A stretch of DNA of 64,000 nt, taken from positions 1,696,001 to 1,760,000 of the forward strand of contig CBDFLE010000006.1 of NCBI GenBank assembly GCA_965248925.1, read 5' to 3'. The stretch comes from Candidatus Multivoradales bacterium (GTDB lineage Bacteria > Acidobacteriota > Thermoanaerobaculia > Multivoradales > J023). Below, piece by piece: positions 2,262 to 17,088 of this stretch (position 1 is the stretch's first letter; each line of letters opens with the position of its first letter). Under the pieces are notes generated by a model that saw nothing but the letters and a program-made list of their open reading frames with translations, was not told the origin of the DNA and ran no database searches. Made by a program: the position numbers and the translations under genes.

Positions 2262-3085
2262 GACCCCTCCGTGCCAATGTAAGTGAGACACTCAAGTAAC
2301 GAGAAATTAGTGAGGGCGTGGAGAGCAAACACCATGGCGAGTCCAAGCCACGAGCTGCGAGATATGAGCGCTGACCGACCAGATCCCGAGGTAACTGAGA
2401 AGGCGAAGCGGCGGCGGTACAGCGCTTCGTACAAGCTGGGCATCGTCCAGGCCGCCGACGCCTGTAGCAAGCCCGGCGAGATTGGCGCCCTGCTTCGCCG
2501 GGAGGGTCTGTATTCCTCACTCCTATCGAAGTGGCGTCAGCAACGCGATGCCAGTGCTCTGGCCGGTTTGTCGAAGAAGCGCGGTCGCAAGCATCGACCG
2601 AAATCTGCTGAGGCCCGCCGCGTCGCGGAGCTGGAGCGTGAGAATGCTCGGCTCAAGCATCAGCTGTACAAAGCCGAGACGATGTATCGAGTCCTGGAGT
2701 CTGAGGGCGAGCTGCGCGAGCGACGCCGTCAGCGGCGCCATCCCAACTACACCAAGCCCGAGCTGTTGGCCACCGGGCCGAACGAGGTGTGGTCGTGGGA
2801 TATCAGCAAGCTCAAAGGCCCGGTGAAGTGGACCTATTACTATCTTCACCTGATCCTGGATGTCTTCAGCCGCTACATCGTCGGCTGGATGCTCGCCGAC
2901 AGTGTTGAGAGGCAAGGTGTTGAGCGAGATCGACTTACCTTGCACTCGGACCGCGGTTCGAGCATGACATCCAAGCCAGTGGCCCTACTACTGGCCGATC
3001 TCGGGATGACACGGTCGCTGAACCGGCCCTACACGAGCAACGACAATCCGTTCTCTGAGGCCCAGTTCAAGACGCTCAAGTACCC
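2262..3085 (+). mobile_element. Internally deleted, right-truncated IS3-family element
   Basis: Left end and sequence closely match 13668-14866, with 338 bp and 39 bp deletions. ORF 2283-3095 is an OrfA-OrfB fusion. Confidence 0.9.
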
Positions 3086-3128
3086 ACGAGCCTAAGCCAT
3101 CGGCGTTACCACCTCGAACTATCGACTG

Positions 3129-5528
3129 ATGTTGAACGATCTCTTGGTCGCCGCACGGCGGCTCCGCCACCGTCCGCGGTTTTGCTTTGCAGTCGTTTCC
3201 ATGCTCGCCCTGGTGATCGCCCTCGGTACGCTGGTGGTCGCCTGGGCCAGAGGCATGATTCTCGCGCCGCTGAACTTCGACGATCCCGGACGGCTCGTGC
3301 GCGTCTTTGGCACCGAACGCAACACGGATCGATCACGGTTGCGGTTGTCCCAAGCAACTATCATGGCCATTCGCGATGACGCTGGCGCTTTTGTGGTGTC
3401 GGGCTCCGCCCGCAACATGGGTCTGGCAATTACCGAGCTGGATCGTCCGACCAATCCGCTGATGCGAGAGGTTTCCAGGGGTTGGTTCGAAACCCTGGGC
3501 GTGCGAACCCTTCTCGGTCGCACGTTCGACGATGCTGATCACTTCCAGTGTAAGCGGGTGGTGGTTCTCAAACACAGCTTCTGGCGTAGCTACTACGGCG
3601 GCGATCCTCAGGTAATCGGTAAGAGCATCGAGCTCGCCGAAGACCCCTATGTGATCATCGGCGTTCTCGGGCCGGAATTCCGGAACCCCATCTTCCCGCT
3701 CTTGCCTGCGCTTTGGCTTCCCCTTTCTGAAGCTGGTCCCCATCCAGAAGCCCCTGAGAACTTCGTCTTCATCGGAAGGATGGGCAGGGACACCAATCTG
3801 GCCACCGCCAGCCACGCGCTCAGCCGGCTGGCTACCAATCTCGAGAACCGGTATCCCCAAAGTCATGCCGGACGGAGCCTCGAGGCGATCCCCTTGGAGG
3901 AGTCTGTGGTTGAGGCCTTCCGCCCGGCACTGGCACCCTTGCTGGGAGCTTCCCTGTTGATCCTCTTGATCGCCTTCAGCAACGTGGGTAACCTGTGGAT
4001 GACCCGCGCCACGGATCTCCGCCAGGAAGCTGCGGTCCGCTTTGCGCTGGGTGCCCAGCGCTTCCGCCTCTTGCGGATGGCCCTGGCCGAATCCCTGCTG
4101 CTTTGCACCCTGTCGGCAGCCATCGGCCTCGGGGTTGCAGCCGTTGCGCTCGAGCCTTTGAAACGCCTGGCTCCTCTCAGCCAGACCGTGCCCTTGCTCG
4201 ACCAGGTTCGACTGGATGCACTCTCGATCGGTACCGGCCTTGCCATCGCGGCCACCGGTGCGATTCTCCTTGCCCTGCTAGCCCTAGGCGCCCTTTCTGA
4301 CCGGCAGGAAGGCCTTGGCGGCCGGTCTCATCGCCAGTTGCAAAGCACGCGAGGCTTCGCCCAAGGCTGTCTCGTGGTTTCCGAGATTGCGCTCTCCATG
4401 ATCCTGATCTTCGCCGCCGGCCTGACCATACAGGCACTCGCGGATCTGCGCCGATTGGACCTCGGTTTCGAACCGATCTCGGCAATTGGCGGGCGTACCG
4501 GCGCACGCGGACCGAAATTCGAGGACGCCGAAGGGATTGCCAGGTTTCACCAGCGGATTCTCGAAACACTCGTCGGCCTGCCCGGGGTGAGCGCGGCGGG
4601 ATCGTGCGAGATCCTTCCGATGTTTGCCAAGGGCTTCGGTACCGCCACTCGCCTCGGCACAGGACGGTCGGACGGGCCCCGCGAGACCTGGCCCGCAGCG
4701 TCAACCCTACGGGCCACGCCAGGATTCTTCGCGGCATTCGGAACCGGGCTCGTACGAGGTCGCGGTTTCCAACGGACCGACGTCGCCGGCGGGCAGCAGG
4801 TCGCGATCCTCACCCGGTCCCTGGCGCGAGTCCTTTGGGGGGATTCGGATCCCCTCGGGCAAAGCGTGATCGCAGACCAAGGTGGTCAACGCAAGTCGCT
4901 AACAGTGGTGGGTATCGTCGACGATCAGCGGGGCCTGCCGGAAGACCCGATCCCGCAGCCTTTGCTCTTCGTGCCGCACGCCCAGGATCCGACCACCTAC
5001 ATGTCGTTCGTTTTACGGGTCGATGGCCCATTCCCCAGCATCGCTGCGATCGAAGACGTGATCTGGACCGTCAGCGCTGAAGCCCCCGTATACAGCGTTG
5101 CGACGCTATCGCAGCTGCTTCGAGATCTGGAATGGCGACCGCGGATGCTGACCCAGATGCTGGCGGTAGTCGGACTTCTCGCGCTGATCCTGGCCATGAC
5201 CGGGGTTGCTTCTGTGCTGGCGTACCAAGTCGCCGAATCGAGAGCCGAAATCGCTGTTCGAATGGCGATCGGCGCCAATCGCGCCCAGGTTCTACTCGCT
5301 GTCTTGACACGAATCACACACCTAGTGACCCTAGGGCTTATCCTGGGAATCTTCGCTGCGGTCGCGGGGGGGCGTTTTCTCGCCAGCTGCCTTCACGGCG
5401 TCCCATCCTTCGACTGGCGGATCTTTCTGGCCTCCGGGGCTCTGCTGACCGTGACCGCGATGATATCCGGTTTAATCCCCGCCCGCCGAGCGACCTTGAT
5501 CGATCCCGCAAGAGCGCTCAGGCGCTAG
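3129..5528 (+). CDS. Duplicated MacB/FtsX ABC permease (ADOP-type orphan permease)
   Basis: 799 aa with two MacB-PCD/FtsX halves (EAAVRFALGA, EIAVRMAIGA) and C-terminal PARRATLIDPARALR. No ATPase gene nearby. Confidence 0.9.
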   Translation: MLNDLLVAARRLRHRPRFCFAVVSMLALVIALGTLVVAWARGMILAPLNFDDPGRLVRVFGTERNTDRSRLRLSQATIMAIRDDAGAFVVSGSARNMGLAITELDRPTNPLMREVSRGWFETLGVRTLLGRTFDDADHFQCKRVVVLKHSFWRSYYGGDPQVIGKSIELAEDPYVIIGVLGPEFRNPIFPLLPALWLPLSEAGPHPEAPENFVFIGRMGRDTNLATASHALSRLATNLENRYPQSHAGRSLEAIPLEESVVEAFRPALAPLLGASLLILLIAFSNVGNLWMTRATDLRQEAAVRFALGAQRFRLLRMALAESLLLCTLSAAIGLGVAAVALEPLKRLAPLSQTVPLLDQVRLDALSIGTGLAIAATGAILLALLALGALSDRQEGLGGRSHRQLQSTRGFAQGCLVVSEIALSMILIFAAGLTIQALADLRRLDLGFEPISAIGGRTGARGPKFEDAEGIARFHQRILETLVGLPGVSAAGSCEILPMFAKGFGTATRLGTGRSDGPRETWPAASTLRATPGFFAAFGTGLVRGRGFQRTDVAGGQQVAILTRSLARVLWGDSDPLGQSVIADQGGQRKSLTVVGIVDDQRGLPEDPIPQPLLFVPHAQDPTTYMSFVLRVDGPFPSIAAIEDVIWTVSAEAPVYSVATLSQLLRDLEWRPRMLTQMLAVVGLLALILAMTGVASVLAYQVAESRAEIAVRMAIGANRAQVLLAVLTRITHLVTLGLILGIFAAVAGGRFLASCLHGVPSFDWRIFLASGALLTVTAMISGLIPARRATLIDPARALRR

Positions 5529-5543
5529 CTATAGCTAGCTCAT

Positions 5544-5975
5544 TCACTCGTCCCAGCCGAAAGTCTGAAACCAATCCCCACCCTCGAGAAAGCTGATCGA
5601 GCGAGCAACGTAAGGCACCGTCGGTCGTGGCAGGTCATCGAACGGCGCCCATCGAAGATCGTCGCACTTGTGGGGCTCACAATTCGAAATCACCCCGCTC
5701 CAGCGATCGATAGAGGCGAAGAAGTCAATGCGCTCCTCGCCGTATAGTCGATGCATGACTCCGACCATTTGCAGATCCTTCTCTTGGATCTCAACACCGA
5801 CCTCCTCTCGCGATTCGCGGACAGCTGCCGCCAAGACCGTCTCCCCGCCATCGATATGGCCGGCGACCACGGAATACTTCCCGTCCTCGAAGCCGGTGTT
5901 GTACCGGCGGAGCATCAGTACCTCTCGATCTCGGACAAAGAAGATGTGAATCGCCACTGGCACCTGGAATCGCAT
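5544..5975 (-). CDS. NUDIX hydrolase (MutT-like)
   Basis: Complete Nudix box GHIDGGETVLAAAVRESREEVGV; EPHKC motif. Confidence 0.92.
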   Translation of the reverse strand: MRFQVPVAIHIFFVRDREVLMLRRYNTGFEDGKYSVVAGHIDGGETVLAAAVRESREEVGVEIQEKDLQMVGVMHRLYGEERIDFFASIDRWSGVISNCEPHKCDDLRWAPFDDLPRPTVPYVARSISFLEGGDWFQTFGWDE

Positions 5976-6069: not shown

Positions 6070-8334
6070 TCAACCCGCTGCTGCCTCAGTCGGACCATTG
6101 ATCAGCTCCCACACACTAGAGCGCTCATTCCACCGGTCGAGTGCCCGGGCGAGTTGCCGATCCTTGCTGTCGCGGAGCTTGCCTGTCGCCAATCGATGGC
6201 TCAAGACTTGGTTCTCCTCGCACACCCAATCTTCGAAGAACGAAAGGCAGGCGAACAACGTACTGATTCGGCGGGAACTGGAGCGGTTCGGCCCCCGGCT
6301 CCGCAGGCGCTCGAGCTCCAAACTGAGCCCTCTTTCGACGGATCCCGTAGGCTGCGCCTCGACCGAGGTAGATACATCTAAAACGAAGATGATGGCCTTG
6401 ATCAGCTCCAAGCTGATCTTCCGATAGGCAACCATCCAGGAGAGGAGATCGCGCCGCTCAGCATCGCTAGCAACCTTGTAGAGGCTCTTAGTTGTGTAGG
6501 CAAGTCCAAAATTCCGATCGATCCAACGTTGGGAGAATTCGCTGATATCCCCGATTCGTTCATCGAGGTACCTGACCCGTTGTCGGCCCATGTTGACGTC
6601 CGGAACCCCGTCATCCAGGAACAAGCGCAGTCCGTACTTTCGTTCCGCACCTTCCACCATCCTCGCGTAGGGACTGTCAATCAGCACCTCCAGGCTCGCC
6701 AGCATGTATGAGACGCTCGAATGAATCGGCTTGTCCGCTTTGTTCTCTTCGACAAAGTCCCGGTCCCGGCAAAGCTTGTCGAAGAGATCGGCATAGCCGA
6801 TCTCTTCGACATCCAAAGGTTTCATGAAAGCATCTGTGCGCTCGAGAAAACGAATGTTCTCTCTCAGGTCCTCGAAGCTCGCCATCAGCGGGTCGAAGGT
6901 GATGAATCCAAAGCGGAGCGGAATCCCCAGCGCGCTGAGAATGCGAATGGCGCGCACGCTGTCCTCCGGCTTGATCCCCTTCCCCAATCGGCGCAGCTGC
7001 GACTCACTGCCCGATTCCAGACCCATGAAGAGTCGATCGAGCCCGGCCTGCCTGCTCAGATGCCACATTTCCACACGGCCGAGGTGCCATTGAGTGTCCA
7101 TCCGGGGGGAGAAGACTTGATCGACTCTTGCCGCAGCGTCGAACTTCATCCCCATCTCCGCCGCCAGAAGCCCACGGGCCATTCCTGTGATGCGGGCGGT
7201 TTCGCGACCGCCGTCGATTCCGCCGACAAACTCCTCGTCAGCCAAGAAGACATGCTTGCGAACACCGAAGTGTTCTGCTGCACGCTTCAGGAGCGCGAAT
7301 TGCGAGACGATCTGATCGGGGGCGAATGTCTTCCAGTCCGCGGCCTTGTGGTGACGCGGGCAGAAAGTGCACTTGTTCCACTGGCAACCTCGGCTCAGCT
7401 CGAGGGTCAGGGCGCCCCGTTGGTCGGCGATCGCGGGCAGAGTATCCAGGGCCGGGAGCGGAATCGTCGACACGTCGACGGGCCGCTGGGGATTTCGCCG
7501 CGTCTCCCTGCTCGAGCCAGAGCGATAGGCCAGTCCTGGAATCTCGGAGCGTTGACAACGGCCTTGCAGCGAATCGACGAGCAGGGCGATCGAATGCTCA
7601 CCTTCACCGGTGGCGACCACGAGATTGTCGTAGCGATCGAGGAACAGATCGGGCCAGGAAGCCGGAATGATATTGCCCAACACAAAGGTGGTACCCCGGA
7701 GAGAGTCATCGACGTGCCTATAGAGATCCTGGAGAATTGTCTCGGCGATGCTTTTCTGCCCGTACGAAATCGATATCCCGATCAAGTCGGGTCGGAGCTG
7801 AACCGCTGTGTCGGTAATTTCATCTACAGTCGTGCCCACCTGCATGTCGCAGATGCGCACGTCAGCTTTCTGCAAGAGACGCAAGTGGCTGGCCAGCAAG
7901 CCGATGCTGAGGCAGAGCCTCGGAATCGGAAAATTCTCCAGGACACACGGATTGACCAGGAGCACCTTTGGCAGCTGCAGCCGGTCGACCAAGGCTTGAC
8001 TCCGCGGTATCAATGCCACGCCCACGAGATCTGGAACCGGCGACGGGCTGATCCCCAGCTCGCTCAGTAGCGGATTCGATTCGATCGTCGTCCCGGGACA
8101 AATTAGCAGGATGCCGTCGGACCCGAGCAGGTAGAAGCTCAGGTTGGACGTTTCGCCCGAGACAACCAGGTTAACCCGCTCGGGGCCGCCGGTCTCTTCC
8201 AGAACGGACGCGAGGCGCCGGACCATTTCATGAGGAGGCTGCCAGAATTCCTGCACGATCTCTTCGACCATCAAACGCAGACGCGGGCCGGCCAGCGCCT
8301 CGACGCGGCCATCTCGTCTCTTGATTTCGAACAT
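6070..8334 (-). CDS. oxsB: Cobalamin-dependent radical SAM enzyme, OxsB/AlsB-type oxetane ring-contraction homolog
   Basis: Cx4Cx2C motif SRGCQWNKCTFCPRHHK. Blocks ENFPIPRL, DMQVGTT, ADEEF, FLERTDAFMKP, VSYMLAS, NMGR, WIDRNFG and C-terminal WELIN are colinear with B. megaterium OxsB as I recall it. GGAGGT precedes ATG 8334 (alternative start 8385). Confidence 0.85.
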   Translation of the reverse strand: MFEIKRRDGRVEALAGPRLRLMVEEIVQEFWQPPHEMVRRLASVLEETGGPERVNLVVSGETSNLSFYLLGSDGILLICPGTTIESNPLLSELGISPSPVPDLVGVALIPRSQALVDRLQLPKVLLVNPCVLENFPIPRLCLSIGLLASHLRLLQKADVRICDMQVGTTVDEITDTAVQLRPDLIGISISYGQKSIAETILQDLYRHVDDSLRGTTFVLGNIIPASWPDLFLDRYDNLVVATGEGEHSIALLVDSLQGRCQRSEIPGLAYRSGSSRETRRNPQRPVDVSTIPLPALDTLPAIADQRGALTLELSRGCQWNKCTFCPRHHKAADWKTFAPDQIVSQFALLKRAAEHFGVRKHVFLADEEFVGGIDGGRETARITGMARGLLAAEMGMKFDAAARVDQVFSPRMDTQWHLGRVEMWHLSRQAGLDRLFMGLESGSESQLRRLGKGIKPEDSVRAIRILSALGIPLRFGFITFDPLMASFEDLRENIRFLERTDAFMKPLDVEEIGYADLFDKLCRDRDFVEENKADKPIHSSVSYMLASLEVLIDSPYARMVEGAERKYGLRLFLDDGVPDVNMGRQRVRYLDERIGDISEFSQRWIDRNFGLAYTTKSLYKVASDAERRDLLSWMVAYRKISLELIKAIIFVLDVSTSVEAQPTGSVERGLSLELERLRSRGPNRSSSRRISTLFACLSFFEDWVCEENQVLSHRLATGKLRDSKDRQLARALDRWNERSSVWELINGPTEAAAG

Positions 8335-8417
8335 CGATGCACCTCCAGGGGACTCGATAGGCTTGGGTGTTTCACGGGTTGCCATGGGAAGGGCTCGGGG
8401 ACTGGAGGCCTAGTAAG

Positions 8418-9578
8418 TCAGTGGAACCAGCCATTAGCGGCTTCGGTATCGAGGGAGTTGCGGCCGCAATCCTGATAGAACGGAACAAAATCGTATTTCT
8501 GATACACCGCTTGGAGATGCTTTCCCATGGCCCGCAGGTCTTCGAGCGATGCCCGCGGGTGATCCGCCAGCCGGACACCCGGATCCGGATGAAAGACGTT
8601 GATCACCGGCGCGACACCCCGCTCGGCCACGTAGTCGAGGCCCTCGGCCAAGGAGTCGACCGGCTCGAGCCCGCCGACGAAAATCGTGTAGATATTGCCC
8701 GCGCCGAGAATCTCGGCCGCCCGCACTTGGGCTTCGATGGCTTTCTCGCGTCCATAGAGATCGTGCTTGCCCGGTGCGATGACCGGGAACAGCGACGGCG
8801 AGAAAACCTCGAGGTTCATCGCCACCTTGACCGGTAACCCCTTCAATTCCGCGAGCAGCTCCAGGTTGTCGGGGGGCATGGTGATCAAGTGCACCTCCAC
8901 CTCGTCTTGGCGGTCCAACTCGTTCACCACCTCTGCCACGCGCCGAACCGTTTCGAGATGGCGGCGGAAACCCATATCGTTGTTTCGGCGATTGCCACCA
9001 TTGAGCATGACCTGACGGATCAGGTCCGGGTCTTGCTCCAGCGCGATCCTCGTCATCTCCGCCGAGTCGTCCGCCTTGATATCCAGGAGATGATCCCCAT
9101 AGATCGACCGGGTCGGCTCGAGGGAACAAAAACCGCATTGTTTCCCTACTGAGAAGTAGTAACAAGTCCCGAGAGCGAAGATGCCCAACGAGCCGCCGCC
9201 GTAGAGCGTTCCAACTTCCCGACAAGGTGTACCGTCTGCGAATGAGGCTTCGTAGAATCTCGGTCGCTTCGGAAAGGTGATAGGAGTGATCGGCTCGCCG
9301 TGCTCCAGCAAGAAATACTCGAGACCGTCCGCCGCCAGCTGATAGGGCGAATTCTCGACAACGTGAATCGGAGCGATTACCTGCGGCAACAAGATCTCCT
9401 GCGGAATCCGCGCCTGAAAGTGCAAAGCGTCGCTGGCACCGTAGGCCCAGCGCTTTTCAATGAACTCGGGCCGGTAGGATTCGAGGAATCCCGGAGCGAA
9501 GCTAATACCGTTTGACAAGATACGTAGCTTGATATCGGTCAGCTCCGCTGGGGAAAGCTCGGTCGATAGGGTCGTCAT
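8418..9578 (-). CDS. Radical SAM protein, biotin synthase-related clade; positional equivalent of albucidin AlsA
   Basis: Cx8Cx2C motif CYYFSVGKQCGFC, NGG, MNLEVF, IAPGK, GGLEP and C-terminal CGRNSLD. AGGAG precedes ATG 9578; a second in-frame ATG at 9695 overlaps the upstream stop. Confidence 0.8.
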   Translation of the reverse strand: MTTLSTELSPAELTDIKLRILSNGISFAPGFLESYRPEFIEKRWAYGASDALHFQARIPQEILLPQVIAPIHVVENSPYQLAADGLEYFLLEHGEPITPITFPKRPRFYEASFADGTPCREVGTLYGGGSLGIFALGTCYYFSVGKQCGFCSLEPTRSIYGDHLLDIKADDSAEMTRIALEQDPDLIRQVMLNGGNRRNNDMGFRRHLETVRRVAEVVNELDRQDEVEVHLITMPPDNLELLAELKGLPVKVAMNLEVFSPSLFPVIAPGKHDLYGREKAIEAQVRAAEILGAGNIYTIFVGGLEPVDSLAEGLDYVAERGVAPVINVFHPDPGVRLADHPRASLEDLRAMGKHLQAVYQKYDFVPFYQDCGRNSLDTEAANGWFH

Positions 9579-9691
9579 TCCATCTCCTACTTCAACTGGT
9601 TCGTTGCGTTCGTCCGAGGAGCCGTGTTGGTCGAATCGGCCACATCTGGCGGTCAGTAACAGCACCCCGCTGGTTTCGGTAAACAGCGTCG

Positions 9692-10780
9692 TCATCGGCC
9701 ATCCGCAAGCGCTCCGATGGCTGCCGCCGTGGTTGCGCCCGCGTTCACATCTACCCCTGGAGGCAGGTCCAGGCCGAGTATTGAAAGTTCGTCTGCTTTG
9801 AGCGGAGGAAGGTCGTGATACTCCAGTCGCCCCGCATAGGGGCAGCCGAAGTATCGCGCTGTAGTCATGATCTCGTGAAAACTGTGCGCTTTGATCGACA
9901 TCAAATAACCCAAGACCGCGACCCGAACTCTCAACAGCGAGCTCATCCGGAGGATTCGAGCAAACTGCAGGTACTGCATAGTGACGCCCGACAAGCCGGT
10001 GGCCAGCGGCATCGCCGCTGCATTGGAAGCGCGGACGAAAGCGTCCGCTGGATTGGGGCGCCACTGCCGCCGCGGATCCATCCACGGTACGAGGTCGTTA
10101 CCCAACGGATTCATCAACTTGCGTTCACGGCTATCGAATCGGCCGCCTTCCGCGACAAAGTCGGAGCGGGACTGCAGCGACCAGATCATCTCTTCCGCGT
10201 CCGTGGGGCACGCCTGCCGGGAGTTCTCCTGCTGTCGACGGAGGGGGTGCCAGAGCATCTTCCCGAAGTCTTCGTAAGGATCCAGACTCGCGAGTCGAAT
10301 GCTCTGGTGTCGTGAAATCTCGCTCTTTCGTCGCAGCGCCTGATCGAGCATCGAGCGCAACAGCTGGATGTCGTAACCAGCGTCCGCTGCGAGCTTCAAT
10401 CCATCGGCGAGGCGGTCGGGGCCGGCAAGGTCTTCGAAAAGAAGCCTGCAAACGAAGAGCCAGAGGTGTGCCATCGATTCGCGAAGGTTCCCTCGGCCCG
10501 CGAAGACGCAACGCAGCTCCGCTTCGCCGTCCCCGACTCGACCGGCGAAATGGCTTTCGAGCGGAGAAGCACAGCGTCGCATCAGCGCGTAGCGGGATTC
10601 TGCGGCGCGACGCCTGCCGAGAGCCCGGGCCCGGATCTCGATATACCGATTCGCCGCCTGCAGCATGTCTCCCGCCGATCTCGAAGCGATCGGGTGATCG
10701 GCCAGCGCATGCCCCAGACCACGTTCGAACCGTTCCCGAGCCGCCAACGTAGTCTCGGGCCATTGCCCTTTGCCCGTCAT
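9692..10780 (-). CDS. Uncharacterised protein with GxSG...HxxxE motif (candidate S-HxxxE nucleotidyltransferase/AMPylase)
   Basis: MPLATGLSGVT followed 35 residues later by HSFHE. ATGA overlaps at both ends couple it into the operon. Confidence 0.6.
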   Translation of the reverse strand: MTGKGQWPETTLAARERFERGLGHALADHPIASRSAGDMLQAANRYIEIRARALGRRRAAESRYALMRRCASPLESHFAGRVGDGEAELRCVFAGRGNLRESMAHLWLFVCRLLFEDLAGPDRLADGLKLAADAGYDIQLLRSMLDQALRRKSEISRHQSIRLASLDPYEDFGKMLWHPLRRQQENSRQACPTDAEEMIWSLQSRSDFVAEGGRFDSRERKLMNPLGNDLVPWMDPRRQWRPNPADAFVRASNAAAMPLATGLSGVTMQYLQFARILRMSSLLRVRVAVLGYLMSIKAHSFHEIMTTARYFGCPYAGRLEYHDLPPLKADELSILGLDLPPGVDVNAGATTAAAIGALADGR

Positions 10781-11826
10781 GCGACTGTGACTTTCGACAG
10801 CTCGTTCTTAGAAGGGAACAGACGAGACAACGAGCGGCCATGCGGATCGTCGATTGCCGCCCGCACCGCCTCGTCAGCCACCGCGTCGAGCCACGGTGCA
10901 ACCTCGGGAACATAGGAAAGCAACCTGCCCGCGACGCCGGGCGCCGCCATCCAAAGCGTGCCCCTCTCGCCCAATTCGACGGTTGTCGTCCCGCGATGTC
11001 TGGGTACGAAAACAGCGCTCGTGAGAAGGCCTGCAGGAGGGAAAATCAACATGTTCCACAAACCGGGATTGCCGGCTCGACTGTCATGAAACGCGACCAG
11101 CTTTGCCAAACTTCGAGCGACCGCTGAGTCCCGACCTTCCAAGAAAAGGCCCGACAGAGGACCCAAGCGATAGCTCGCGACCTCGATCCCTTCTCCAGAA
11201 AAGACACATCTCAGCTCGGATCGACGCGCGCGAAGCGCCGCTTGCAAGGGCAGCTCGGCACGCATAATCTGCCAATGCCAATGATCCTGGCTATTGCTGA
11301 CAGTACCGTTGAAGAAAGCTACCAATGGCCGATCCGACTGAGCGGCTCGGGTCAAAGCAATCATGTCGGCAATCTCGGACTCGGACAGCCATGCCTGTTC
11401 ACGGTGTTCGGGGGTCACCACGGTGAATTGGACACCGTCTTGACCTTCGTAGGGTTTCGGATGGGGCGGGATCTCGTATCGCCGCCAGGCCAGTCTCCGC
11501 TCCTGAGCCAACGGCGGGTTGCACATTACACAAGTCCGCAGGCCCCGGCTCGGCAGCCGAGGAACATCGAGATTCGGTACGTTCTCTCCGAGGTGCTCGT
11601 TCCAGTGAGTGTAGTTCCATGATTCGAGCAACCCCGAGGTACCGAGGTGGGTCAGGAGCTTGGCGGAAGGCAAGTCCGCGGCGAAGAAGGGAAGCGAGCG
11701 ATGGTAGTCGGCTAGGATGCCCAGCGCCGCCGCCAGCTCCTTGTCAGACACGCGTACAATCGGTTGCTGGTCGAGAGATCCGAATGACTTCGTCTCTCCC
11801 CCAACCTCTACCTCCCAGCTATTCAT
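10777..11826 (-). CDS. HIT/GalT-superfamily nucleotidyltransferase/phosphorylase (Ap4A phosphorylase or DUF4922-like)
   Basis: FFNGTVSNSQDHWHWQ (HxHxQ), upstream CVMC and HREQ, downstream WNML..FVPR. Confidence 0.72.
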   Translation of the reverse strand: MNSWEVEVGGETKSFGSLDQQPIVRVSDKELAAALGILADYHRSLPFFAADLPSAKLLTHLGTSGLLESWNYTHWNEHLGENVPNLDVPRLPSRGLRTCVMCNPPLAQERRLAWRRYEIPPHPKPYEGQDGVQFTVVTPEHREQAWLSESEIADMIALTRAAQSDRPLVAFFNGTVSNSQDHWHWQIMRAELPLQAALRARRSELRCVFSGEGIEVASYRLGPLSGLFLEGRDSAVARSLAKLVAFHDSRAGNPGLWNMLIFPPAGLLTSAVFVPRHRGTTTVELGERGTLWMAAPGVAGRLLSYVPEVAPWLDAVADEAVRAAIDDPHGRSLSRLFPSKNELSKVTVA

Positions 11827-11977: not shown

Positions 11978-13312
11978 ATGGAAACACCCAACAGGCTGGT
12001 AACCCTCCCGATCCCAGTGGCAATCTGGCGGTCTTCTCTACCCCTGCTATTCGGGCTCTTGACCGTGGCCAGCATCCCATTGGTCGACAGCGTCTACGTC
12101 TCGCACTACTCGACTCGAGCCTTCAACTCCCTTGCCATGGCCTTGCCGATCATGACGCTCGTTAGCGCCTTCGCTTCGTCGTTGGCCGCCGCCGCAGGCA
12201 ACGCATACGCAAGGGCCAGTAGACCTGAGAGAGGGAATCTTGAATTCACCTCAGCGGTCACCCTCGCCCTCACCAGTGGGCTGGTCTTGGTGGCAGTCGC
12301 CCTGTTCGGCACTAGCTCGATACTCGCGTGGTATCGCCTCGATTCATCGTCGGAGCTTGCTAGGGGTTTCTCGGCGTATTGGCGATGGATCCTTCCTACC
12401 CTTCCCCTCTACCTGCTTTTCGGCTGCCTGCTGCAAACCCTGGTGGCGAGGGGCGAAACTGCCCGCGCCAATCGGTCCGTTGCCGTTTTGGCCGCGGTCA
12501 ACTTCGCCATCGACCCAGTTCTGATCTTCGGGCTCGACCTCGGAATCACCGGTGCGGCGATCGCCGCGGATATTGCCTATCTGGCCGCGAACCTAGCGGC
12601 GATTCGAGGGCTTCGCGCGATTCCCGGGCTGACCCTCCAGCCGCTGAGTCTCCGACGACTCGGCAAGCCGATATGGCGACAACTGCGTACCGGATTCTTC
12701 ATCGCCGCCGGAACCAGCGCGTTTCTGGTCAGCGACTTTCTTTTTCGCCGCATGGCAGCGCTCGAAGGGCCCGAGGCGATCACCGCCATCGGGATCGCCG
12801 ATCAGCTCGCGCTGGTCTTCATCCAGGTGACCCGAGGGATTGCCGCAGGGATAATCCCGGTGGCCGGGGCCTACTTGGCGCTGAATCGGTGGGGTCGGCT
12901 GGTCATGATCTACTGGAGCGGCACCAGTCTCGTCGGAATCTTTTACGCCGTCGCCGGCCTGCTCTTGATCGGAGCGCCCGCTCTCGCGCTCGGCTTCTTC
13001 GACATTTCCAGGGAAGCCGCGACTGCAGACCAAGTCATATTCTTGCAAGTGACCGGCGCCACCCTATTGATCAACGTACCGGCAAGACTGCTGCCGCCAT
13101 GCGCCGTGGCACTCGGTCGCCCCCAGGTGGGAACCTTCTACAGCGTCACTGCCGTGGCAACTTGCTATCTCCTCGCTGTCTGGCTCGTACCGGAGTACTC
13201 CTATGTCGGCATCGCTTGGGGCCGATTCTTCGGTTTCCTGCTGGTCAACATCGCGGGTATCCCCTATCTCTTTTCCTTGATGAAGGCCGAGCCGAAGCGT
13301 CAGCCGCGCTGA
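11978..13312 (+). CDS. MATE-family efflux transporter
   Basis: 444 aa polytopic membrane protein with VDSVYV and NFAIDPVLIFGLDLGITGAAIA. Divergent from the radical SAM operon. Confidence 0.85.
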   Translation: METPNRLVTLPIPVAIWRSSLPLLFGLLTVASIPLVDSVYVSHYSTRAFNSLAMALPIMTLVSAFASSLAAAAGNAYARASRPERGNLEFTSAVTLALTSGLVLVAVALFGTSSILAWYRLDSSSELARGFSAYWRWILPTLPLYLLFGCLLQTLVARGETARANRSVAVLAAVNFAIDPVLIFGLDLGITGAAIAADIAYLAANLAAIRGLRAIPGLTLQPLSLRRLGKPIWRQLRTGFFIAAGTSAFLVSDFLFRRMAALEGPEAITAIGIADQLALVFIQVTRGIAAGIIPVAGAYLALNRWGRLVMIYWSGTSLVGIFYAVAGLLLIGAPALALGFFDISREAATADQVIFLQVTGATLLINVPARLLPPCAVALGRPQVGTFYSVTAVATCYLLAVWLVPEYSYVGIAWGRFFGFLLVNIAGIPYLFSLMKAEPKRQPR

Positions 13313-13739
13313 GCTCGCCTATGCTCGAATGCTGACCCGCAGGATGCCACTCAGCAGGTCAGGCGACTCTAGCAAGATCCCATCCAGAAACGCTGTTCCG
13401 CCGCTTTTTGGCGGCCGAATCAGCCCTGGTGCTGAGTTCCTACGAGGAGGTGTCAGCGGCAGTTGGAAAGCGTACGTAGTTGGTGTAAAGCGCAGAACAG
13501 CGCCGTCCGCTAGATCCAGCTAACCGGCATCGTCATCCCCGCCGAAGGCGGGCTTCGCGTGAAGTGCATGGCGTATAACGCACGATAGAATGGCGACCAT
13601 GACTGAGCCTGAAAGCCATCGCCTCATTCTTCGGCAACCACTGCGAACGGCGGGTTTCGATCTGCAAGAGCCCTCTGTGCCAATGTAGGTGAGACACTCC
13701 CGTACCGATAAATTAGTGAGGGCGTGGAGAGCAAACACC

Positions 13740-14153
13740 ATGGCGAGTCCAAGCCACGAGCTGCGAGATATGAGTGCTGACCGACCAGATCCCGAGGTAA
13801 CTGAGAAGGCGAAGCGGCGGCGGTACAGCGCGTCGTACAAGCTGAGCATCGTCCAGGCCGCCGACGCCTGTAGCAAAGCCGGCGAGATTGGCGCCCTGCT
13901 TCGCCGGGAGGGTCTGTATTCCTCACTCCTATCGAAGTGGCGCCAGCAACGCGATGCCAGTGCTCTGGCCGGTCTGTCGAAGAAGCGCGGTCGCAAGCGT
14001 CGACCGGTCTCTGCCGAGGCCCGCCGCGTCGCGGAGCTTGAGCGTGAGAATGCCCGGCTCAAGCATCAGCTGTACAAAGCCGAGACGATCATCGATGTCC
14101 AAAAAAAACTTTCCCGGCTGCTAGGGATCGAGCCGAGCGAGAGCCAGCCATGA
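13740..14153 (+). CDS. IS3 transposase OrfA (HTH and leucine zipper)
   Basis: KRRRYSASYKL, LLRREGLYSSLLSKWRQQR, LERENARLK, IIDVQKK. Confidence 0.88.
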   Translation: MASPSHELRDMSADRPDPEVTEKAKRRRYSASYKLSIVQAADACSKAGEIGALLRREGLYSSLLSKWRQQRDASALAGLSKKRGRKRRPVSAEARRVAELERENARLKHQLYKAETIIDVQKKLSRLLGIEPSESQP

Positions 14154-15271
14154 GCGCTGTGGCGCCGCTGGCCGAGACGGTGGGGGTGCAAGCAGCCTGC
14201 GTCGCCTTGGCGGTCCCCAGAGCCACTTTCTATCGCCGCCGTCGGCAGCAGAGCGCAGGGCCGCAGCTATCAACGCGGCCTCGACCGCCGCTGGCATTGA
14301 CGCCCGCTGAACGCCAGGAGGTCCTCGATGTGTTGCACTCGGAGCGCTTCGTCGACCGCTCGCCGCGTCAAGTCTGGGCGGCGCTGCTGGACGAGGATCA
14401 GCGCCATATCTGCTCGGTGCGCACCATGTACCGGGTCCTGGAGTCTGAGGGCGAGCTGCGCGAGCGACGCCGTCAGCGGCGTCATCCCAACTACACCAAG
14501 CCCGAACTGCTGGCCACAGGGCCGAACGAGGTGTGGTCGTGGGACATCACCAAGCTCAAGGGCCCGGTGAAGTGGACCCACTACTACCTTTACGTAATTC
14601 TGGACGTCTTCAGCCGCTACATCGTCGGCTGGATGCTCGCCTGCCGCGAGTCCGGAGGGCTCGCGAAGCGGTTGATCGCCGACAGTGTTGAGAAGCAAGG
14701 TGTTGAGCGAGATCGACTTACCTTGCACTCGGACCGCGGTTCGAGCATGACATCCAAGCCAGTGGCTCTACTGCTGGCCGATCTCGGGATGACACGGTCG
14801 CTGAACCGGCCCTACACGAGCAACGACAATCCGTTCTCTGAGGCCCAGTTCAAGACGCTCAAGTACCATCCGAGCTTTCCCGACCGCTTCGGATCACTGG
14901 AAGATGCACGAGCATTCTGCCGCTCGTTCATCGGCTGGTACAACACGCAGCACTACCACACAGGACTCGGCTTGTTGACGCCAGAGACCGTCCACTACGG
15001 CCTCACGGCCTCAGTACTGGAGCAACGTCGAGAAGTCCTCGCCGCCGCCTCAGCCGCTCATCCAAGCCGCTTCAAGCGGCGAGCGCCGGCTTTGCCGGAG
15101 CCCAGTGACAAGGTCTGGATCAACCCGCCGACCACCGCCGCCAGCACTGACCCAGTCGATACCGAGAACGTAGTGACACACCGCGTACACAACGACGCAC
15201 CAGGCGAGACCCCTGGCTGCGCGCCCTCGCTGAAAGCGATGGTGCCGGAGCCACTACCGATTCCGTACTAA
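14150..15271 (+). CDS. IS3 transposase OrfB (rve DDE integrase core)
   Basis: WSWDITKL, LHSDRGSSM, SNDNPFSEAQFKT; ATGA overlap with orfA. Confidence 0.92.
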   Translation: MSAVAPLAETVGVQAACVALAVPRATFYRRRRQQSAGPQLSTRPRPPLALTPAERQEVLDVLHSERFVDRSPRQVWAALLDEDQRHICSVRTMYRVLESEGELRERRRQRRHPNYTKPELLATGPNEVWSWDITKLKGPVKWTHYYLYVILDVFSRYIVGWMLACRESGGLAKRLIADSVEKQGVERDRLTLHSDRGSSMTSKPVALLLADLGMTRSLNRPYTSNDNPFSEAQFKTLKYHPSFPDRFGSLEDARAFCRSFIGWYNTQHYHTGLGLLTPETVHYGLTASVLEQRREVLAAASAAHPSRFKRRAPALPEPSDKVWINPPTTAASTDPVDTENVVTHRVHNDAPGETPGCAPSLKAMVPEPLPIPY

Positions 15272-15468: not shown

Positions 15469-17088
15469 GTGACGGATCACAGTGACAGCTCAATGGACAA
15501 GACGGTGTCCAAGCTACCCCAAGCGCCGAGCAGCTGTCTTGCCACGCAGTTCGGTTGGACCCAAAAGGGCGTGTTTTGTGTGAACGTCGCTTTTCTTACC
15601 CTACCCGTCCAGTCTTCAGGCGACCTTTTGCTGGTCGGCGCCCACCAGCGAGAGACCTTCGAAATCGAGGTGCCAGCCAATTCGGGAGAGGTGCCGGGAG
15701 AGGTGCCAGCCAATTCGGGAGAGCTCATCCTCAGTGTCGAAGGCGACCCCAATGGCTTCTTCCTCTGGGGTGCGCCAACCTTCGTCCCAGCCGGCGGCAG
15801 CGAGTTGCCGTCGCTGGTGCTGATCACCCTCGACACTACCCGCCGCGACGTACTCGGGGCCTACGGTGGAGCGCCGGGCCTGACCCCGGCCTTGGACGCC
15901 CTGGCCGCCGAGGCGACGGTCTTCGAGCGCGCCTATGCCCCCTCCTCCTGGACCCTGCCCTCGCACGCTTCGATCTTCACCGGCCTCTACCCCTCGCGCC
16001 ACGGTGCTGGGGTCGCTGGCGATCATCTCGAAGGACGCTTCACCACCGTCGCCGAGCTGCTGCGGCAGCGGGGCTATCTGACCGCCGGATTCGCAGGCGG
16101 CTTGCTTTCCTCCTACCGCTTCGGCGTTGCCCAAGGGTTCTCCCTATTCCGCGACCCGACCGGTTTCGAGTCCTCGGCCGACGAGATCAACAGCCATGCC
16201 CGCAGCCTGTTGGCCGACAGCGGTGAGCAGCCCTTGTTCTTGTTCATCAACTACTTCGACCCCCACTTCCCTTACGCCGCCCCGAAGGGATTCCGCGCCG
16301 CCCAGCAAGTCGATCAGAAGATCGCCAGCGTCCAAGGTCCCGAGCTGTGGCTTGCAGCCCTGGCCGGCTCCAGCGAAGCCTGGTTGCGAGTCACCGCCGG
16401 TGAGGTCGCCCACAGCGCCGAGGCCCTCGACGCCTTGGGCGCCGCCTACCGCGCCGAAATCGCCTTCACCGACCAACAGCTCGGCAAGCTCTTCGACGAC
16501 CTGCGGCGCAACAATCGTTGGCAAGACAGCCTGATCATCGTCACCGCCGACCACGGCGAATTGTTGGGGGAAGGAGGGCACGTCTCCCACGCTGCCCGTC
16601 TCGATCCCGAGTTGGTCGAAGTGCCGCTGATTATCAAATGGCCCGGCCAGCAGCAAGGCGCCCGGCGCGACCAACTAGTCTCTCTGGTCGACCTCTTCCC
16701 CACCCTGCTACGCGCCGCCGGAATCGAGCTACCCGAGAACATCGACGGCCTGCCCCTACAAGCCGCAAAAGCCCTCGAAAAGCGCTCCGCCGTGTGGATG
16801 GAAGAGCACGACAGCGACTTCCACCGCTTGCCCGAGCGCATGCGCCACGGCGCCGACGCCTACGGCCGCCAAGAAAAAGCCTTCCGCCAAATCGCCTGGG
16901 AAGACGGCACCCTCTGCGCCCGCGGCGGCACCGGCGCCTGGCGCCCCACCCCCTGCCCGCCCACGGACCCCGAGGGTCGCCAGCTCTTCGACCAGGCCGG
17001 CGCCGACGCCTGGCGCGCCCAGGCCACCCGCATCGGCCTCAGCGATGAAGAACGCAGCAAGCTGCGGGCGTTGGGTTATTTGCAGTAG
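15469..17088 (+). CDS. Sulfatase-like hydrolase, second copy (start uncertain, possibly 5'-truncated)
   Basis: LITLDTTRRD, SWTLPSHASIFTG, ADHGE. 15836-17088 duplicates 1-1253. In-frame 24 bp repeat at 15667-15690 and 15700-15723. Confidence 0.82.
   Translation: MTDHSDSSMDKTVSKLPQAPSSCLATQFGWTQKGVFCVNVAFLTLPVQSSGDLLLVGAHQRETFEIEVPANSGEVPGEVPANSGELILSVEGDPNGFFLWGAPTFVPAGGSELPSLVLITLDTTRRDVLGAYGGAPGLTPALDALAAEATVFERAYAPSSWTLPSHASIFTGLYPSRHGAGVAGDHLEGRFTTVAELLRQRGYLTAGFAGGLLSSYRFGVAQGFSLFRDPTGFESSADEINSHARSLLADSGEQPLFLFINYFDPHFPYAAPKGFRAAQQVDQKIASVQGPELWLAALAGSSEAWLRVTAGEVAHSAEALDALGAAYRAEIAFTDQQLGKLFDDLRRNNRWQDSLIIVTADHGELLGEGGHVSHAARLDPELVEVPLIIKWPGQQQGARRDQLVSLVDLFPTLLRAAGIELPENIDGLPLQAAKALEKRSAVWMEEHDSDFHRLPERMRHGADAYGRQEKAFRQIAWEDGTLCARGGTGAWRPTPCPPTDPEGRQLFDQAGADAWRAQATRIGLSDEERSKLRALGYLQ

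What the first reader, a model, noticed from the sequence alone, without database searches (positions are those of the whole stretch)
9692..10780. Toxin-like S-HxxxE (LnaB-type) motif protein embedded in a biosynthetic operon
Seen: GLSGVT followed 35 aa later by HSFHE, in a 362 aa protein with no signal peptide or repeats, coupled by ATGA overlaps on both sides. Established: Legionella LnaB defines an S-HxxxE family that transfers AMP from ATP onto phosphoryl groups, known from effectors and toxins. Inference: this protein may adenylate the phosphate of an oxetane nucleotide to give an AppN-type dinucleotide (cap, prodrug or self-protection). That would be a small-molecule biosynthetic role for the family. 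The assignment rests on the motif only.
Basis: partly seen in the sequence, partly recalled or inferred. Interest (0 to 1): 0.8.

Follow-up and report, generated by a model that had tools for sequence, protein, structure and literature searches.

The report
Toxin-type AMP-transferase in oxetane-nucleoside operon
A 362-residue protein with the fold and catalytic Ser-His-Glu residues of a bacterial toxin enzyme family (LnaB, Ceg14, Mcf) is encoded here as a stand-alone gene inside an operon resembling those that make the rare oxetane nucleosides oxetanocin and albucidin, suggesting this toxin chemistry has also been put to use in small-molecule metabolism.

Summary
The bare S...HxxxE motif is not beyond chance: it occurs in 35% of shuffles. 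The family assignment is nevertheless supported by other evidence. An exhaustive profile search found 315 relatives. Ser264, His299 and Glu303 are conserved in 149/150, 149/149 and 147/148 aligned domains. A pLDDT-90 model ranks the Mcf toxin (Z 11.4) and LnaB (Z 7.4) first and second among 48,161 PDB chains, and the next chain scores Z 5.0. Most relatives are domains of long, toxin-like proteins. P0001 belongs to a mostly stand-alone clade whose three known loci all pair it with a radical SAM enzyme and nucleotide enzymes. In this window the operon is: a HIT-like orphan, the S-HxxxE protein, a variant radical SAM, an OxsB homologue (E 2e-174) and a Nudix hydrolase. IS copies flank it. The radical SAM/OxsB-like/Nudix core recurs on an Agrobacterium plasmid without the S-HxxxE gene, so the S-HxxxE protein is an accessory. 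Its reaction is untested. The candidates are AMP transfer to a pathway nucleotide or NTP-to-NMP hydrolysis. I rate it a new variant of a known kind.

The parts
9692..10780 (-). P0001, 362 aa, a stand-alone S-HxxxE-family protein (the finding)
9980..9997 (-). GLSGVT block. Ser264 is at the N-terminus of helix 265-276. G262 is conserved in 146/150, S264 in 149/150 and G265 in 130/150 aligned domains.
9872..9886 (-). HSFHE block. His299 (149/149) is the presumed nucleophile; Glu303 is conserved in 147/148.
   Evidence: The His role is inferred from LnaB/Ceg14 literature and from the title of PDB entry 9b2z.
10777..11826 (-). P0003, 349 aa, first gene of the operon. It is a sequence orphan with an HWHWQ motif (11269-11283). 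It is possibly a GalT-branch HIT-type nucleotidyl transferase or phosphorylase; this is a lead only.
8418..9695 (-). P0004, 425 aa, a variant radical SAM protein (NF045502, E 1.4e-73) with a Cx9Cx2C motif at residues 178-190
   Evidence: homologues in L020 (41% identity) and L045 (42%)
6070..8385 (-). P0005, 771 aa, a B12-binding radical SAM enzyme and full-length OxsB homologue
   Evidence: 5ul2_A, E 2.2e-174, residues 40-764 against 17-740
5544..5975 (-). P0006, 143 aa, a Nudix hydrolase and last gene of the operon (94-base gap after P0005)
   Evidence: (PF00293, 5.8e-19)
11978..13312 (+). Divergently transcribed MATE efflux transporter, a likely exporter
3129..5528 (+). ADOP-type duplicated MacB/FtsX permease beside the operon. 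MacB/FtsX permeases also flank the L020 operon.
2262..3095 (+). Shortened IS3-family copy; left boundary of the island
13668..15271 (+). IS3-family copy in direct orientation (92-97% identical segments); right boundary of the island

Best explanation
P0001 is a genuine, stand-alone, cytoplasmic member of the S-HxxxE enzyme fold (LnaB, Ceg14/SidL, Mcf). I put that membership at about 0.9. It is translationally coupled into a mobile five-gene operon. The core of that operon (variant radical SAM P0004, OxsB-type B12 radical SAM P0005, Nudix P0006) is an oxetanocin/albucidin-like nucleotide-remodelling module. The mechanism is inferred by analogy, not shown. His299, positioned by Ser264 and Glu303, would attack the alpha-phosphate of ATP, release pyrophosphate and form an AMP-His intermediate. 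It would then pass AMP to a phosphate or hydroxyl of the pathway's nucleotide intermediate or product. This would be an accessory tailoring or masking step yielding an ADP-linked (AppN-type) or AMP-esterified nucleotide. The co-translated P0003 (HIT/GalT-like, HxHxQ) and the Nudix enzyme are the kinds of enzymes that then process such pyrophosphate-linked species. The confidence given is for this transfer-to-small-molecule reading.
For: Family:
- 315 relatives at E<=1e-3 in 1.84 billion representatives.
- S264 149/150, H299 149/149, E303 147/148, G262 146/150 in aligned domains.
- AF2 model with pLDDT 90.2 and pTM 0.90.
- Foldseek's 11 best of 350,542 chains are all Mcf or LnaB, though their E-values are only 0.03-0.55.
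- VIA-align on Foldseek's list: Mcf Z 10.7 (222 aligned, 4.3 A); LnaB Z 6.9-8.7 (191-207 aligned); next unrelated chain Z 3.2.
- Unbiased scan of 48,161 chains: Mcf Z 11.4, LnaB Z 7.4, then 5.0, and SidL at rank 4 with Z 4.8.
- Profile against PDB sequences: Mcf1 E 0.01 and 0.0023, with both motif blocks aligned.

Context:
- ATGA coupling on both sides.
- OxsB homologue at E 2.2e-174.
- The two closest loci with DNA, L020 and L021, again place the homologue in one-strand gene runs. L020 has a variant rSAM (41% identity to P0004), Nudix, a dTMP-kinase-like protein and an IMPase-like protein. L021 has a HemN-like rSAM and PurA.
- P0001 falls in a clade of 36 tips, 32 of which are <=430 aa, with support 0.85.

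Chemistry precedent:
- LnaB transfers AMP to phosphoryl groups (passages of PMC11142304).
- Ceg14/SidL is reported to AMPylate 3-phosphoglycerate (passages of bioRxiv 10.64898/2026.09.15.751733 citing Black et al. 2026).

P0003: the language-model atlas places it with DUF4922/GDPGP1/Ap4A-phosphorylase clusters (score 0.96, all ten best hits agree), and it carries HWHWQ.
Against: - No biochemical evidence exists and the acceptor is unknown.
- LnaB and Ceg14 themselves were not retrieved by sequence profile. The link to them is structural, with Z below the level the tool warns can arise among helical proteins.
- The same rSAM/OxsB-like/Nudix core occurs on an Agrobacterium plasmid without any S-HxxxE gene. 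Two radical SAM enzymes are said to suffice for albucidin in vitro (title of Fan et al. 2022 as cited in PMC13331322). The protein is therefore not needed for ring chemistry.
- The known family members studied need a eukaryotic activator, actin, which is absent here.
- P0003's assignment is only a lead: no Pfam, NCBIfam or PDB hit and no sequence homologue.
- Only 3 loci of the stand-alone clade could be seen in context.
Confidence: 0.4

Rival explanations
1. Ceg14-type hydrolase. P0001 cleaves an adenine nucleoside triphosphate to the monophosphate plus PPi, with water as acceptor. This would either supply dAMP from dATP to the AlsB/OxsB-type enzyme, or protect the producer by destroying the toxic triphosphate of the oxetane nucleoside.
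For: Ceg14 converts ATP/dATP to AMP/dAMP plus PPi through its S-HxxxE motif (abstract and passages of PMC12092593). AlsB is reported to be specific for 2'-dAMP, while OxsB prefers dATP (passages of PMC13331322). Triphosphatases act as self-resistance genes in nucleoside-analogue clusters: thmC in the 4'-thiothymidine cluster (passages of PMC12691670) and OxsA as described. Family membership evidence is as for the best explanation.
Against: A Nudix hydrolase, the usual NTP/NDP-X pyrophosphatase, is already part of the conserved core and also sits next to the homologue in L020. A second enzyme for the same job would be redundant. The plasmid cluster L045 works with the same core and no S-HxxxE gene. 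Nothing here separates hydrolysis from transfer.
Confidence: 0.3
2. A toxin or effector module unrelated to the pathway. It would be a cargo-type S-HxxxE toxin, perhaps with P0003 as its immunity or regulator protein, that landed in the island.
For: Most relatives are domains of long toxin-like proteins:
- 6 of 19 long hits scanned carry eCIS_core; others carry Zeta_toxin or OTU.
- In 20 of 29 loci examined the matching ORF exceeds 450 aa.
- In the Myxococcota sample, 16 of 401 genomes match, and 11 of 17 places lie in open frames >450 aa.

The island is flanked by IS copies. The gene is found in only 1 other of 400 genomes of the same phylum, and weakly.
Against: P0001 has no delivery or N-terminal carrier domain. 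It is coupled by ATGA overlaps to genes on both sides, including a radical SAM enzyme. Its clade is mostly stand-alone. All three loci seen pair it with an rSAM and nucleotide enzymes but share no candidate immunity neighbour. P0003 lies upstream, not downstream, and has no homologue in L020 or L021.
Confidence: 0.08
3. Protein AMPylase. P0001 AMPylates a protein of the pathway (a radical SAM enzyme, a carrier or a regulator) or itself, as LnaB-family toxins self-AMPylate.
For: Self-AMPylation on tyrosine and protein phosphoryl-AMPylation are the activities first shown for the family (passages of PMC11142304).
Against: There is no conserved protein partner across the three loci. The neighbours are nucleotide-handling enzymes, which points to small-molecule substrates. 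No binding test was run.
Confidence: 0.07
4. Chance motif in an unrelated helical protein with no catalytic role for S/H/E.
For: The bare motif occurs in 35% of shuffles. Foldseek E-values are all above 1e-3. Z 7-11 can occur between unrelated helical proteins, according to the tool's own note.
Against: S, H and E are almost invariant over about 150 domains that otherwise share about 25-40% identity to P0001. The two best of 48,161 chains are exactly the two S-HxxxE representatives, and a third member, SidL, ranks 4th. The profile aligns both motif blocks to Mcf1.
Confidence: 0.03

Closest known systems
LnaB (Legionella pneumophila phosphoryl-AMPylase; PDB 8j9b, 8k6e, 8jo4, 9b2z)
   Same: All-helical fold of about 350 residues, matched over nearly its whole length (Z 6.9-8.7, 191-207 residues aligned). 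Ser...HxxxE triad. The domain size is similar to the whole of P0001.
   Different: LnaB is a secreted effector activated by host actin that acts on phosphorylated proteins. P0001 is a stand-alone gene in a bacterial metabolic operon with no eukaryotic cofactor to hand. The S-to-H spacing is 35 against 44 residues. Sequence identity is about 9-10%, and LnaB is not found by sequence profile.
Ceg14/SidL (Legionella ATP/dATP pyrophosphatase and 3-phosphoglycerate adenylyltransferase; PDB 9sxc)
   Same: S-HxxxE family. It acts on free nucleotides (ATP/dATP to AMP/dAMP plus PPi) and is reported to act on a small-molecule acceptor. The Ser-Gly dipeptide at the motif (S527-G528 against S264-G265) matches; the Ceg14 residues are from passages read.
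   Different: The structural match is weaker (Z 4.8, 139 aligned). Ceg14 is about 666 aa by recall, with an N-terminal region, actin activation and a metaeffector inhibitor. Its substrate belongs to the host, not to a biosynthetic pathway.
Mcf1 toxin of Photorhabdus luminescens, internal domain around residues 535-900 (PDB 8p50-8p52)
   Same: It is the best structural match (Z 10.6-11.4, 218-229 aligned) and the only PDB sequence hit, with GISGTT and YHSFFE aligned to the two motif blocks.
   Different: It is one domain of a 2,934-residue secreted insect toxin. P0001 is the domain alone, in an operon.
Albucidin (AlsA/AlsB = albA/albB) and oxetanocin A (OxsA/OxsB) pathways
   Same: P0005 is a full-length OxsB homologue. 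A second radical SAM gene lies directly upstream of it, the same order as albA-albB. As in albucidin, no HD-domain OxsA-type gene is seen in the operon.
   Different: Neither published cluster is described as containing an S-HxxxE protein, a HIT-like protein or a Nudix enzyme (gene table and passages of PMC7074753; passages of PMC13331322). Homology of P0004 to AlsA could not be tested. The albucidin locus has unassigned hypothetical genes 12-14 that I could not compare.
eCIS/polymorphic-toxin C-terminal domains (unnamed relatives)
   Same: The same roughly 330-residue domain with the same invariant residues.
   Different: These are attached to eCIS_core, Zeta-toxin, OTU and other modules in proteins up to 6,177 aa. 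They form the other part of the tree.

Membership tests
S-HxxxE family (LnaB/Ceg14/Mcf-type AMP transferases) | Conserved Ser, His and Glu in an S...HxxxE arrangement, conserved across relatives | tested here: met
   S264, H299 and E303 are present. They are conserved in 149/150, 149/149 and 147/148 aligned domains. H299 and E303 are invariant and S264 is >=90% conserved in the 30-sequence alignment.
S-HxxxE family (LnaB/Ceg14/Mcf-type AMP transferases) | The LnaB-type all-helical two-subdomain fold | tested here: met
   Model pLDDT 90.2. Mcf Z 11.4 and LnaB Z 7.4 are ranks 1 and 2 of 48,161 chains, and the next chain scores 5.0. LnaB chains score Z 6.9-8.7 against 3.2 for the next unrelated chain. 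Caveat: the protein is helical and Foldseek E-values are 0.03-0.55.
S-HxxxE family (LnaB/Ceg14/Mcf-type AMP transferases) | Sequence-profile relation to recognised members | tested here: inconclusive
   Mcf1 is hit at E 0.01 (30-sequence profile) and 0.0023 (62-sequence profile) with the motifs aligned. LnaB and Ceg14 are not retrieved at E<=10. That MCF toxins belong to the family is stated in PMC11142304.
S-HxxxE family (LnaB/Ceg14/Mcf-type AMP transferases) | S, H and E form one contiguous catalytic platform in three dimensions | not testable with these tools
   Model coordinates are not delivered. Only secondary structure is known: S264 caps helix 265-276, H299 lies between helices 282-295 and 301-309, and E303 is on the latter.
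S-HxxxE family (LnaB/Ceg14/Mcf-type AMP transferases) | [quoted passage not shown] | not testable with these tools
   This needs biochemistry.
S-HxxxE family (LnaB/Ceg14/Mcf-type AMP transferases) | Activation by a eukaryotic host factor (actin), shown for the studied members but possibly not defining | not testable with these tools
   The bacterial operon context argues against it. No test was possible.
Oxetane-nucleoside (oxetanocin/albucidin-type) gene cluster | Cobalamin-dependent radical SAM enzyme of the OxsB/AlsB type | tested here: met
   P0005 against OxsB 5ul2_A: E 2.2e-174, residues 40-764 against 17-740. B12-binding and Radical_SAM domains are present.
Oxetane-nucleoside (oxetanocin/albucidin-type) gene cluster | Partner enzyme: OxsA HD-domain phosphohydrolase (oxetanocin) or AlsA second radical SAM (albucidin) | tested here: inconclusive
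   No HD-domain hit was found among the operon proteins. A second radical SAM gene (P0004, NF045502, 1.4e-73) lies directly upstream, as albA does. However, no AlsA sequence was available for comparison.
GalT-branch HIT superfamily (Ap4A phosphorylase / GDP-L-galactose phosphorylase / DUF4922), for P0003 | HxHxQ nucleotidyl-histidine motif and a family profile match | tested here: inconclusive
   HWHWQ is at residues 182-186. Atlas feature search: score 0.96, and all ten best hits carry DUF4922/GDPGP1/Ap4A_phos_N. But there is no Pfam hit even at E<=5, no NCBIfam or PDB hit and no homologue. That HxHxQ marks this branch is recalled, not taken from a call.
Anti-phage defence system (PADLOC catalogue) | A match of the operon proteins to known defence-system models | tested here: not met
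   P0001, P0003, P0004 and P0005 give no hit. Only the Nudix protein matches a candidate model, PDC-S07, at 3.2e-8. No phage record encodes a relative.

The most novel reading that the evidence does not exclude
The S-HxxxE toxin fold has a stand-alone, host-factor-independent branch that works inside bacteria as a biosynthetic tailoring enzyme. In this operon P0001, together with the HIT-like P0003, would cap the 5'-phosphate of an oxetane (albucidin/oxetanocin-like) nucleotide with AMP. The product would be a previously unseen class of pyrophosphate-linked dinucleotide natural product or prodrug, exported by the adjacent MATE/MacB-type transporters. This would also imply that the effector and toxin versions of the fold derive from, or gave rise to, a metabolic enzyme.
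Probability: 0.18. Interest if true: 0.85.

Novelty: new variant of a known kind. Interest (0 to 1): 0.62.

Why it matters
The S-HxxxE enzymes were described only in 2024, as secreted toxins and effectors that need host actin. Their range of chemistry is still being mapped: phosphoryl-AMPylation, ATP depletion and AMPylation of 3-phosphoglycerate. A stand-alone clade wired into radical SAM nucleotide operons would give the family a first role inside the producing bacterium. It would offer cofactor-independent model enzymes from a harmless organism. It would also add an unexplained tailoring, supply or resistance step to oxetane-nucleoside pathways, of which only two are known (an antiviral and a herbicide). 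In two full-text searches of the held library, no listed paper combined the S-HxxxE/LnaB terms with biosynthetic gene clusters, radical SAM or nucleosides.

Tried and rejected
- The first AF2 model, from a 2-sequence alignment, was useless (pLDDT 39.9). It was replaced by a 30-sequence alignment.
- P0001 alone gave nothing in Pfam, NCBIfam, PADLOC, PDB sequences or the ESM atlas.
- The word-based search found a single homologue.
Its single pattern, AH[ST][FW]HE[IV]M, misses many clade members, including P0002.
- Sequence profiles did not reach LnaB or Ceg14.
- P0003 has no homologue, no family at E<=5 and no similarity to the 350-aa unknown protein of L020.
- The extra parts of the clade's longer members (P0037, P0039, P0042, P0062, P0054) show no similarity to any operon partner, so there is no fusion clue.
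- No relative was found in phage records. The only plasmid hit is one domain of a giant 90-kb Streptomyces gene.
- Earlier scan notes by place and by sequence gave nothing.
- The papers of Fan et al. 2022 and Lee et al. 2025 on AlsA/AlsB are not held. What I say about them comes from a review's passages.
- A try at centring a genome search on a plasmid locus was not accepted.
- Complex prediction was not run: no conserved protein partner emerged, so I make no binding claim.
- The defence-system reading was considered and dropped.
- A RiPP reading was dropped once OxsB homology appeared. No search for a precursor peptide gene was made.
Full report
THE OBJECT

The coordinates 9692-10780 hold an ORF on the minus strand; the plus strand is full of stops. 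It encodes 362 residues (P0001), with GLSGVT at 262-267 and HSFHE at 299-303.

Its start overlaps the stop of the upstream gene as ATGA, and its stop overlaps the start of the downstream gene in the same way. The operon on the minus strand is:
- P0003 (10777-11826)
- P0001 (9692-10780)
- P0004 (8418-9695)
- P0005 (6070-8385), after a 32-base gap
- P0006 (5544-5975), after a 94-base gap

A MATE transporter is transcribed divergently (11978-13312), 151 bases upstream of the operon start.

IS THE MOTIF MORE THAN CHANCE?

Taken alone it is not. HxxxE is expected 0.49 times in this composition, and S-x(20-60)-HxxxE appeared in 35% of 20,000 shuffles. Only the extended G-x-S-G...H-S-x-x-E form is rare, at 0.045%.

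RELATIVES

P0001 hits nothing in Pfam, NCBIfam, PADLOC, PDB sequences or the ESM atlas. The word-indexed search found one homologue, P0002, at 38% identity.

The exhaustive HMMER search of 1.84 billion representatives, using the two-sequence profile, found 315 proteins at E<=1e-3. Of these, 93 were at <=1e-10 and 30 at <=1e-30.

The closest are proteins of about 270-400 residues. The more distant ones carry the same roughly 330-residue domain at the end or inside proteins of up to 6,177 residues. I scanned 19 long hits:
- 6 carry the eCIS_core domain.
- Single proteins also carry Zeta_toxin, OTU, Band_7 or DUF3841.
- 10 have no Pfam family.

In an alignment of all stored hits, conservation was as follows:

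| Residue | Conserved in |
|---|---|
| Ser264 | 149 of 150 |
| His299 | 149 of 149 |
| Glu303 | 147 of 148 |
| Gly262 | 146 of 150 |
| Pro258 | 142 of 149 |
| Gly80 | 118 of 120 |

Arg81, Trp177 and Trp200 are conserved mainly in the close, stand-alone group.

FOLD

With 30 sequences the AlphaFold2 model reached pLDDT 90.2 and pTM 0.90; with two it had been 39.9. It is almost all-helical.
- Foldseek against 350,542 PDB chains gave no hit at E<=1e-3. However, its 11 best rows are all the Photorhabdus Mcf toxin (E 0.03-0.055) or LnaB (E 0.13-0.55).
- Re-alignment of Foldseek's list with VIA-align gave Mcf Z 10.7 (222 residues, 4.3 A) and LnaB chains Z 6.9-8.7 (191-207 residues, 4.5-5.1 A), then a drop to Z 3.2.
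- The search that does not depend on Foldseek, over 48,161 representative chains, put Mcf first (Z 11.4) and LnaB second (Z 7.4). The next chain scored 5.0. SidL, another S-HxxxE protein, came fourth at Z 4.8.

The tool warns that helical models can reach such Z by chance. The weight of the result lies in the ranks and the gap, not in the absolute values.

By sequence, profiles of the family hit only Mcf1 in the PDB, at E 0.01 with 30 sequences and 0.0023 with 62. The blocks P-L-x-x-G-i-S-G-t-T and a-H-S-f-x-E aligned to PFVGGISGTT and YHSFFE. LnaB and Ceg14 were not reached by sequence.

The LnaB paper states that the family comprises at least 103 toxins, many of them MCF toxins, and that the Ser-to-His spacing varies greatly (passages of PMC11142304).

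I could not measure the three-dimensional clustering of the three residues, because coordinates are not delivered.

TWO POPULATIONS

A FastTree of 120 domain segments was built from 118 stored proteins whose match spans profile positions <=110 to >=300, plus the L020 and L021 translations. The multi-copy P0103 and all partial matches were left out. The root is at the midpoint.
- P0001 falls in a clade of 36 tips, 32 of which come from proteins of <=430 residues (support 0.85).
- Of the other 84 tips, 71 come from longer proteins.

I examined 29 loci out of the 40 fetched. Eleven short or duplicate contigs were dropped. In 20 of the 29, the ORF holding the match exceeds 450 residues. L001 has an eCIS_core ORF immediately upstream.

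In a sample of the phylum of L001 (Myxococcota, by the record's title), 16 of 401 genomes match at E<=1e-20. Of the 17 places, 11 lie in open frames above 450 residues.

In the window's own phylum, only G000 and one weak match (2.6e-6) were found among 401 genomes. The genome has a single copy.

CONTEXT OF THE STAND-ALONE CLADE

Only three loci could be seen.
- The window.
- L020 (39% identity). One strand carries two unknown genes, an IMPase/CysQ-like phosphatase, a variant radical SAM (41% identical to P0004, E 4e-90), a dTMP-kinase-like protein, a Nudix hydrolase and then the homologue. MacB/FtsX permeases lie beside it, as in the window.
- L021 (37% identity). It carries a RyR-domain protein, a HemN-like radical SAM, an adenylosuccinate synthase and then the homologue.

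So in 3 of 3 loci the gene runs with a radical SAM enzyme and nucleotide enzymes. The neighbours differ otherwise, and no conserved partner protein exists.

THE OPERON PARTNERS

- P0005 is a full-length homologue of OxsB, the B12/radical SAM enzyme of oxetanocin A biosynthesis (5ul2_A, E 2.2e-174, residues 40-764 against 17-740).
- P0004 is a 'variant radical SAM' (NF045502, 1.4e-73) with a Cx9Cx2C motif. It lies directly upstream of P0005, the same order as albA-albB of the albucidin cluster (passages and gene table of PMC7074753).
- P0006 is a Nudix hydrolase (5.8e-19).
- P0003 is a sequence orphan with an HWHWQ motif. The atlas's feature search places it among DUF4922/GDP-L-galactose phosphorylase/Ap4A phosphorylase clusters (score 0.96, all ten best hits agree). 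This is a lead, not a finding.

An Agrobacterium plasmid (L045) carries an OxsB-like gene (36% identity), a P0004-like radical SAM (42%, E 4e-95) and a P0006-like Nudix (42%, E 8e-22) side by side. A six-frame search with the family profile found no S-HxxxE gene there.

The radical SAM/OxsB-like/Nudix trio is therefore the core. P0001 and P0003 are accessories in this window.

Earlier notes of this scan had also described OxsB-like genes with Nudix and kinase-like partners in other genomes. None mentions an S-HxxxE protein.

MOBILITY

Directly repeated IS3-family copies (92-97% identical segments) lie at 2262-3095 and 13668-15271. They enclose the permease, the operon and the MATE gene. Sulfatase paralogues lie outside on both sides.

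HOW IT MOST LIKELY WORKS

Shown here: the fold, the conserved triad and the operon context.

Inferred from the family: His299, held by Ser264 and Glu303, attacks the alpha-phosphate of ATP, releases PPi and carries AMP. The basis is a PDB entry titled as LnaB 'with AMPylated catalytic histidine' (9b2z) and the description of H571 as the catalytic residue of Ceg14, stabilised by S527 and E575 (passages of PMC13439196).

The acceptor is open.
- I favour transfer to a phosphate or hydroxyl of the pathway's nucleotide (0.4). The core already has a Nudix enzyme for plain NTP hydrolysis. P0001 is co-translated with a probable nucleotidyl-transfer/phosphorylase-type protein. The family does make AMP-phosphoryl links and, as reported, an AMP ester of 3-phosphoglycerate.
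- Nearly as likely (0.3) is Ceg14-type hydrolysis of dATP, or of the analogue triphosphate, to the monophosphate. This would feed a dAMP-specific AlsB-type enzyme or protect the producer, as thmC and OxsA do.
- A stray toxin gene (0.08), a protein AMPylase (0.07) and a chance resemblance (0.03) are less likely.

COMPARISON AND NOVELTY

P0001 meets the sequence and fold features of the S-HxxxE family. Its chemistry and the spatial triad remain untested. It differs from every studied member in three ways:
- It is stand-alone.
- It is in a non-secreted, operon-coupled context.
- It lacks any plausible eukaryotic activator.

Among the papers listed, none combines the family with biosynthetic clusters, radical SAM or nucleosides. 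Papers outside the held library, and supplements, were not seen.

I rate it a new variant of a known kind, with interest 0.62.

Noticed in passing
window 2262-3095 and 13668-15271: Two directly repeated IS3-family copies bracket an 11.4-kb island holding the ADOP permease, the five-gene operon and the MATE gene. The left copy is shortened and the shared segments are 92-97% identical. Sulfatase paralogues lie just outside on both sides (57-1253 and 15469-17088). This looks like a composite-transposon-like insertion.
   Followed up: partly
window 10777-11826 (-): P0003 is a true sequence orphan, with no homologue in the 5.8-billion-protein collection. It has an HWHWQ motif, and language-model features resemble DUF4922/GDP-L-galactose phosphorylase/Ap4A phosphorylase.
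   Followed up: partly
L045 6563-10433 (Agrobacterium pusense plasmid NZ_CP123353.1): An OxsB-like radical SAM, a P0004-like variant radical SAM and a Nudix gene lie side by side next to GalE, a phosphodiester glycosidase, an ABC transporter and an MFS transporter. This is a second, differently decorated version of the same core.
   Followed up: partly
L044 (Streptomyces sp. MMBL 11-1 plasmid NZ_CP117710.1): An OxsB-like gene (35% identity) sits with a phosphoribosyltransferase, a HAD hydrolase, a methyltransferase, an aldo/keto reductase and a large Nudix protein. This is another uncharacterised nucleotide cluster.
   Followed up: no
L043 (Streptomyces sp. NBC_01717 plasmid NZ_CP109179.1, record 175202-265261): A single annotated CDS of about 90 kb, labelled 'glycosyltransferase', contains an S-HxxxE-like stretch. 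It is a giant polymorphic-toxin-like gene.
   Followed up: no
P0103 (6,177 aa): One protein carries three to four separate copies or parts of the S-HxxxE domain (residues about 2268-2518, 3058-3475 and 4278-4607).
   Followed up: no
L021 3613-4902: A full-length adenylosuccinate synthase (PurA, E 1e-144) is encoded between a HemN-like radical SAM gene and the S-HxxxE homologue. This hints at a purine-nucleotide product in that cluster.
   Followed up: no
window 8418-9695 (-), residues 178-190 of P0004: The radical SAM cluster motif is Cx9Cx2C instead of the canonical Cx3Cx2C, which fits the NCBIfam name 'variant_rSAM'. Pfam's Radical_SAM model does not detect the protein.
   Followed up: no
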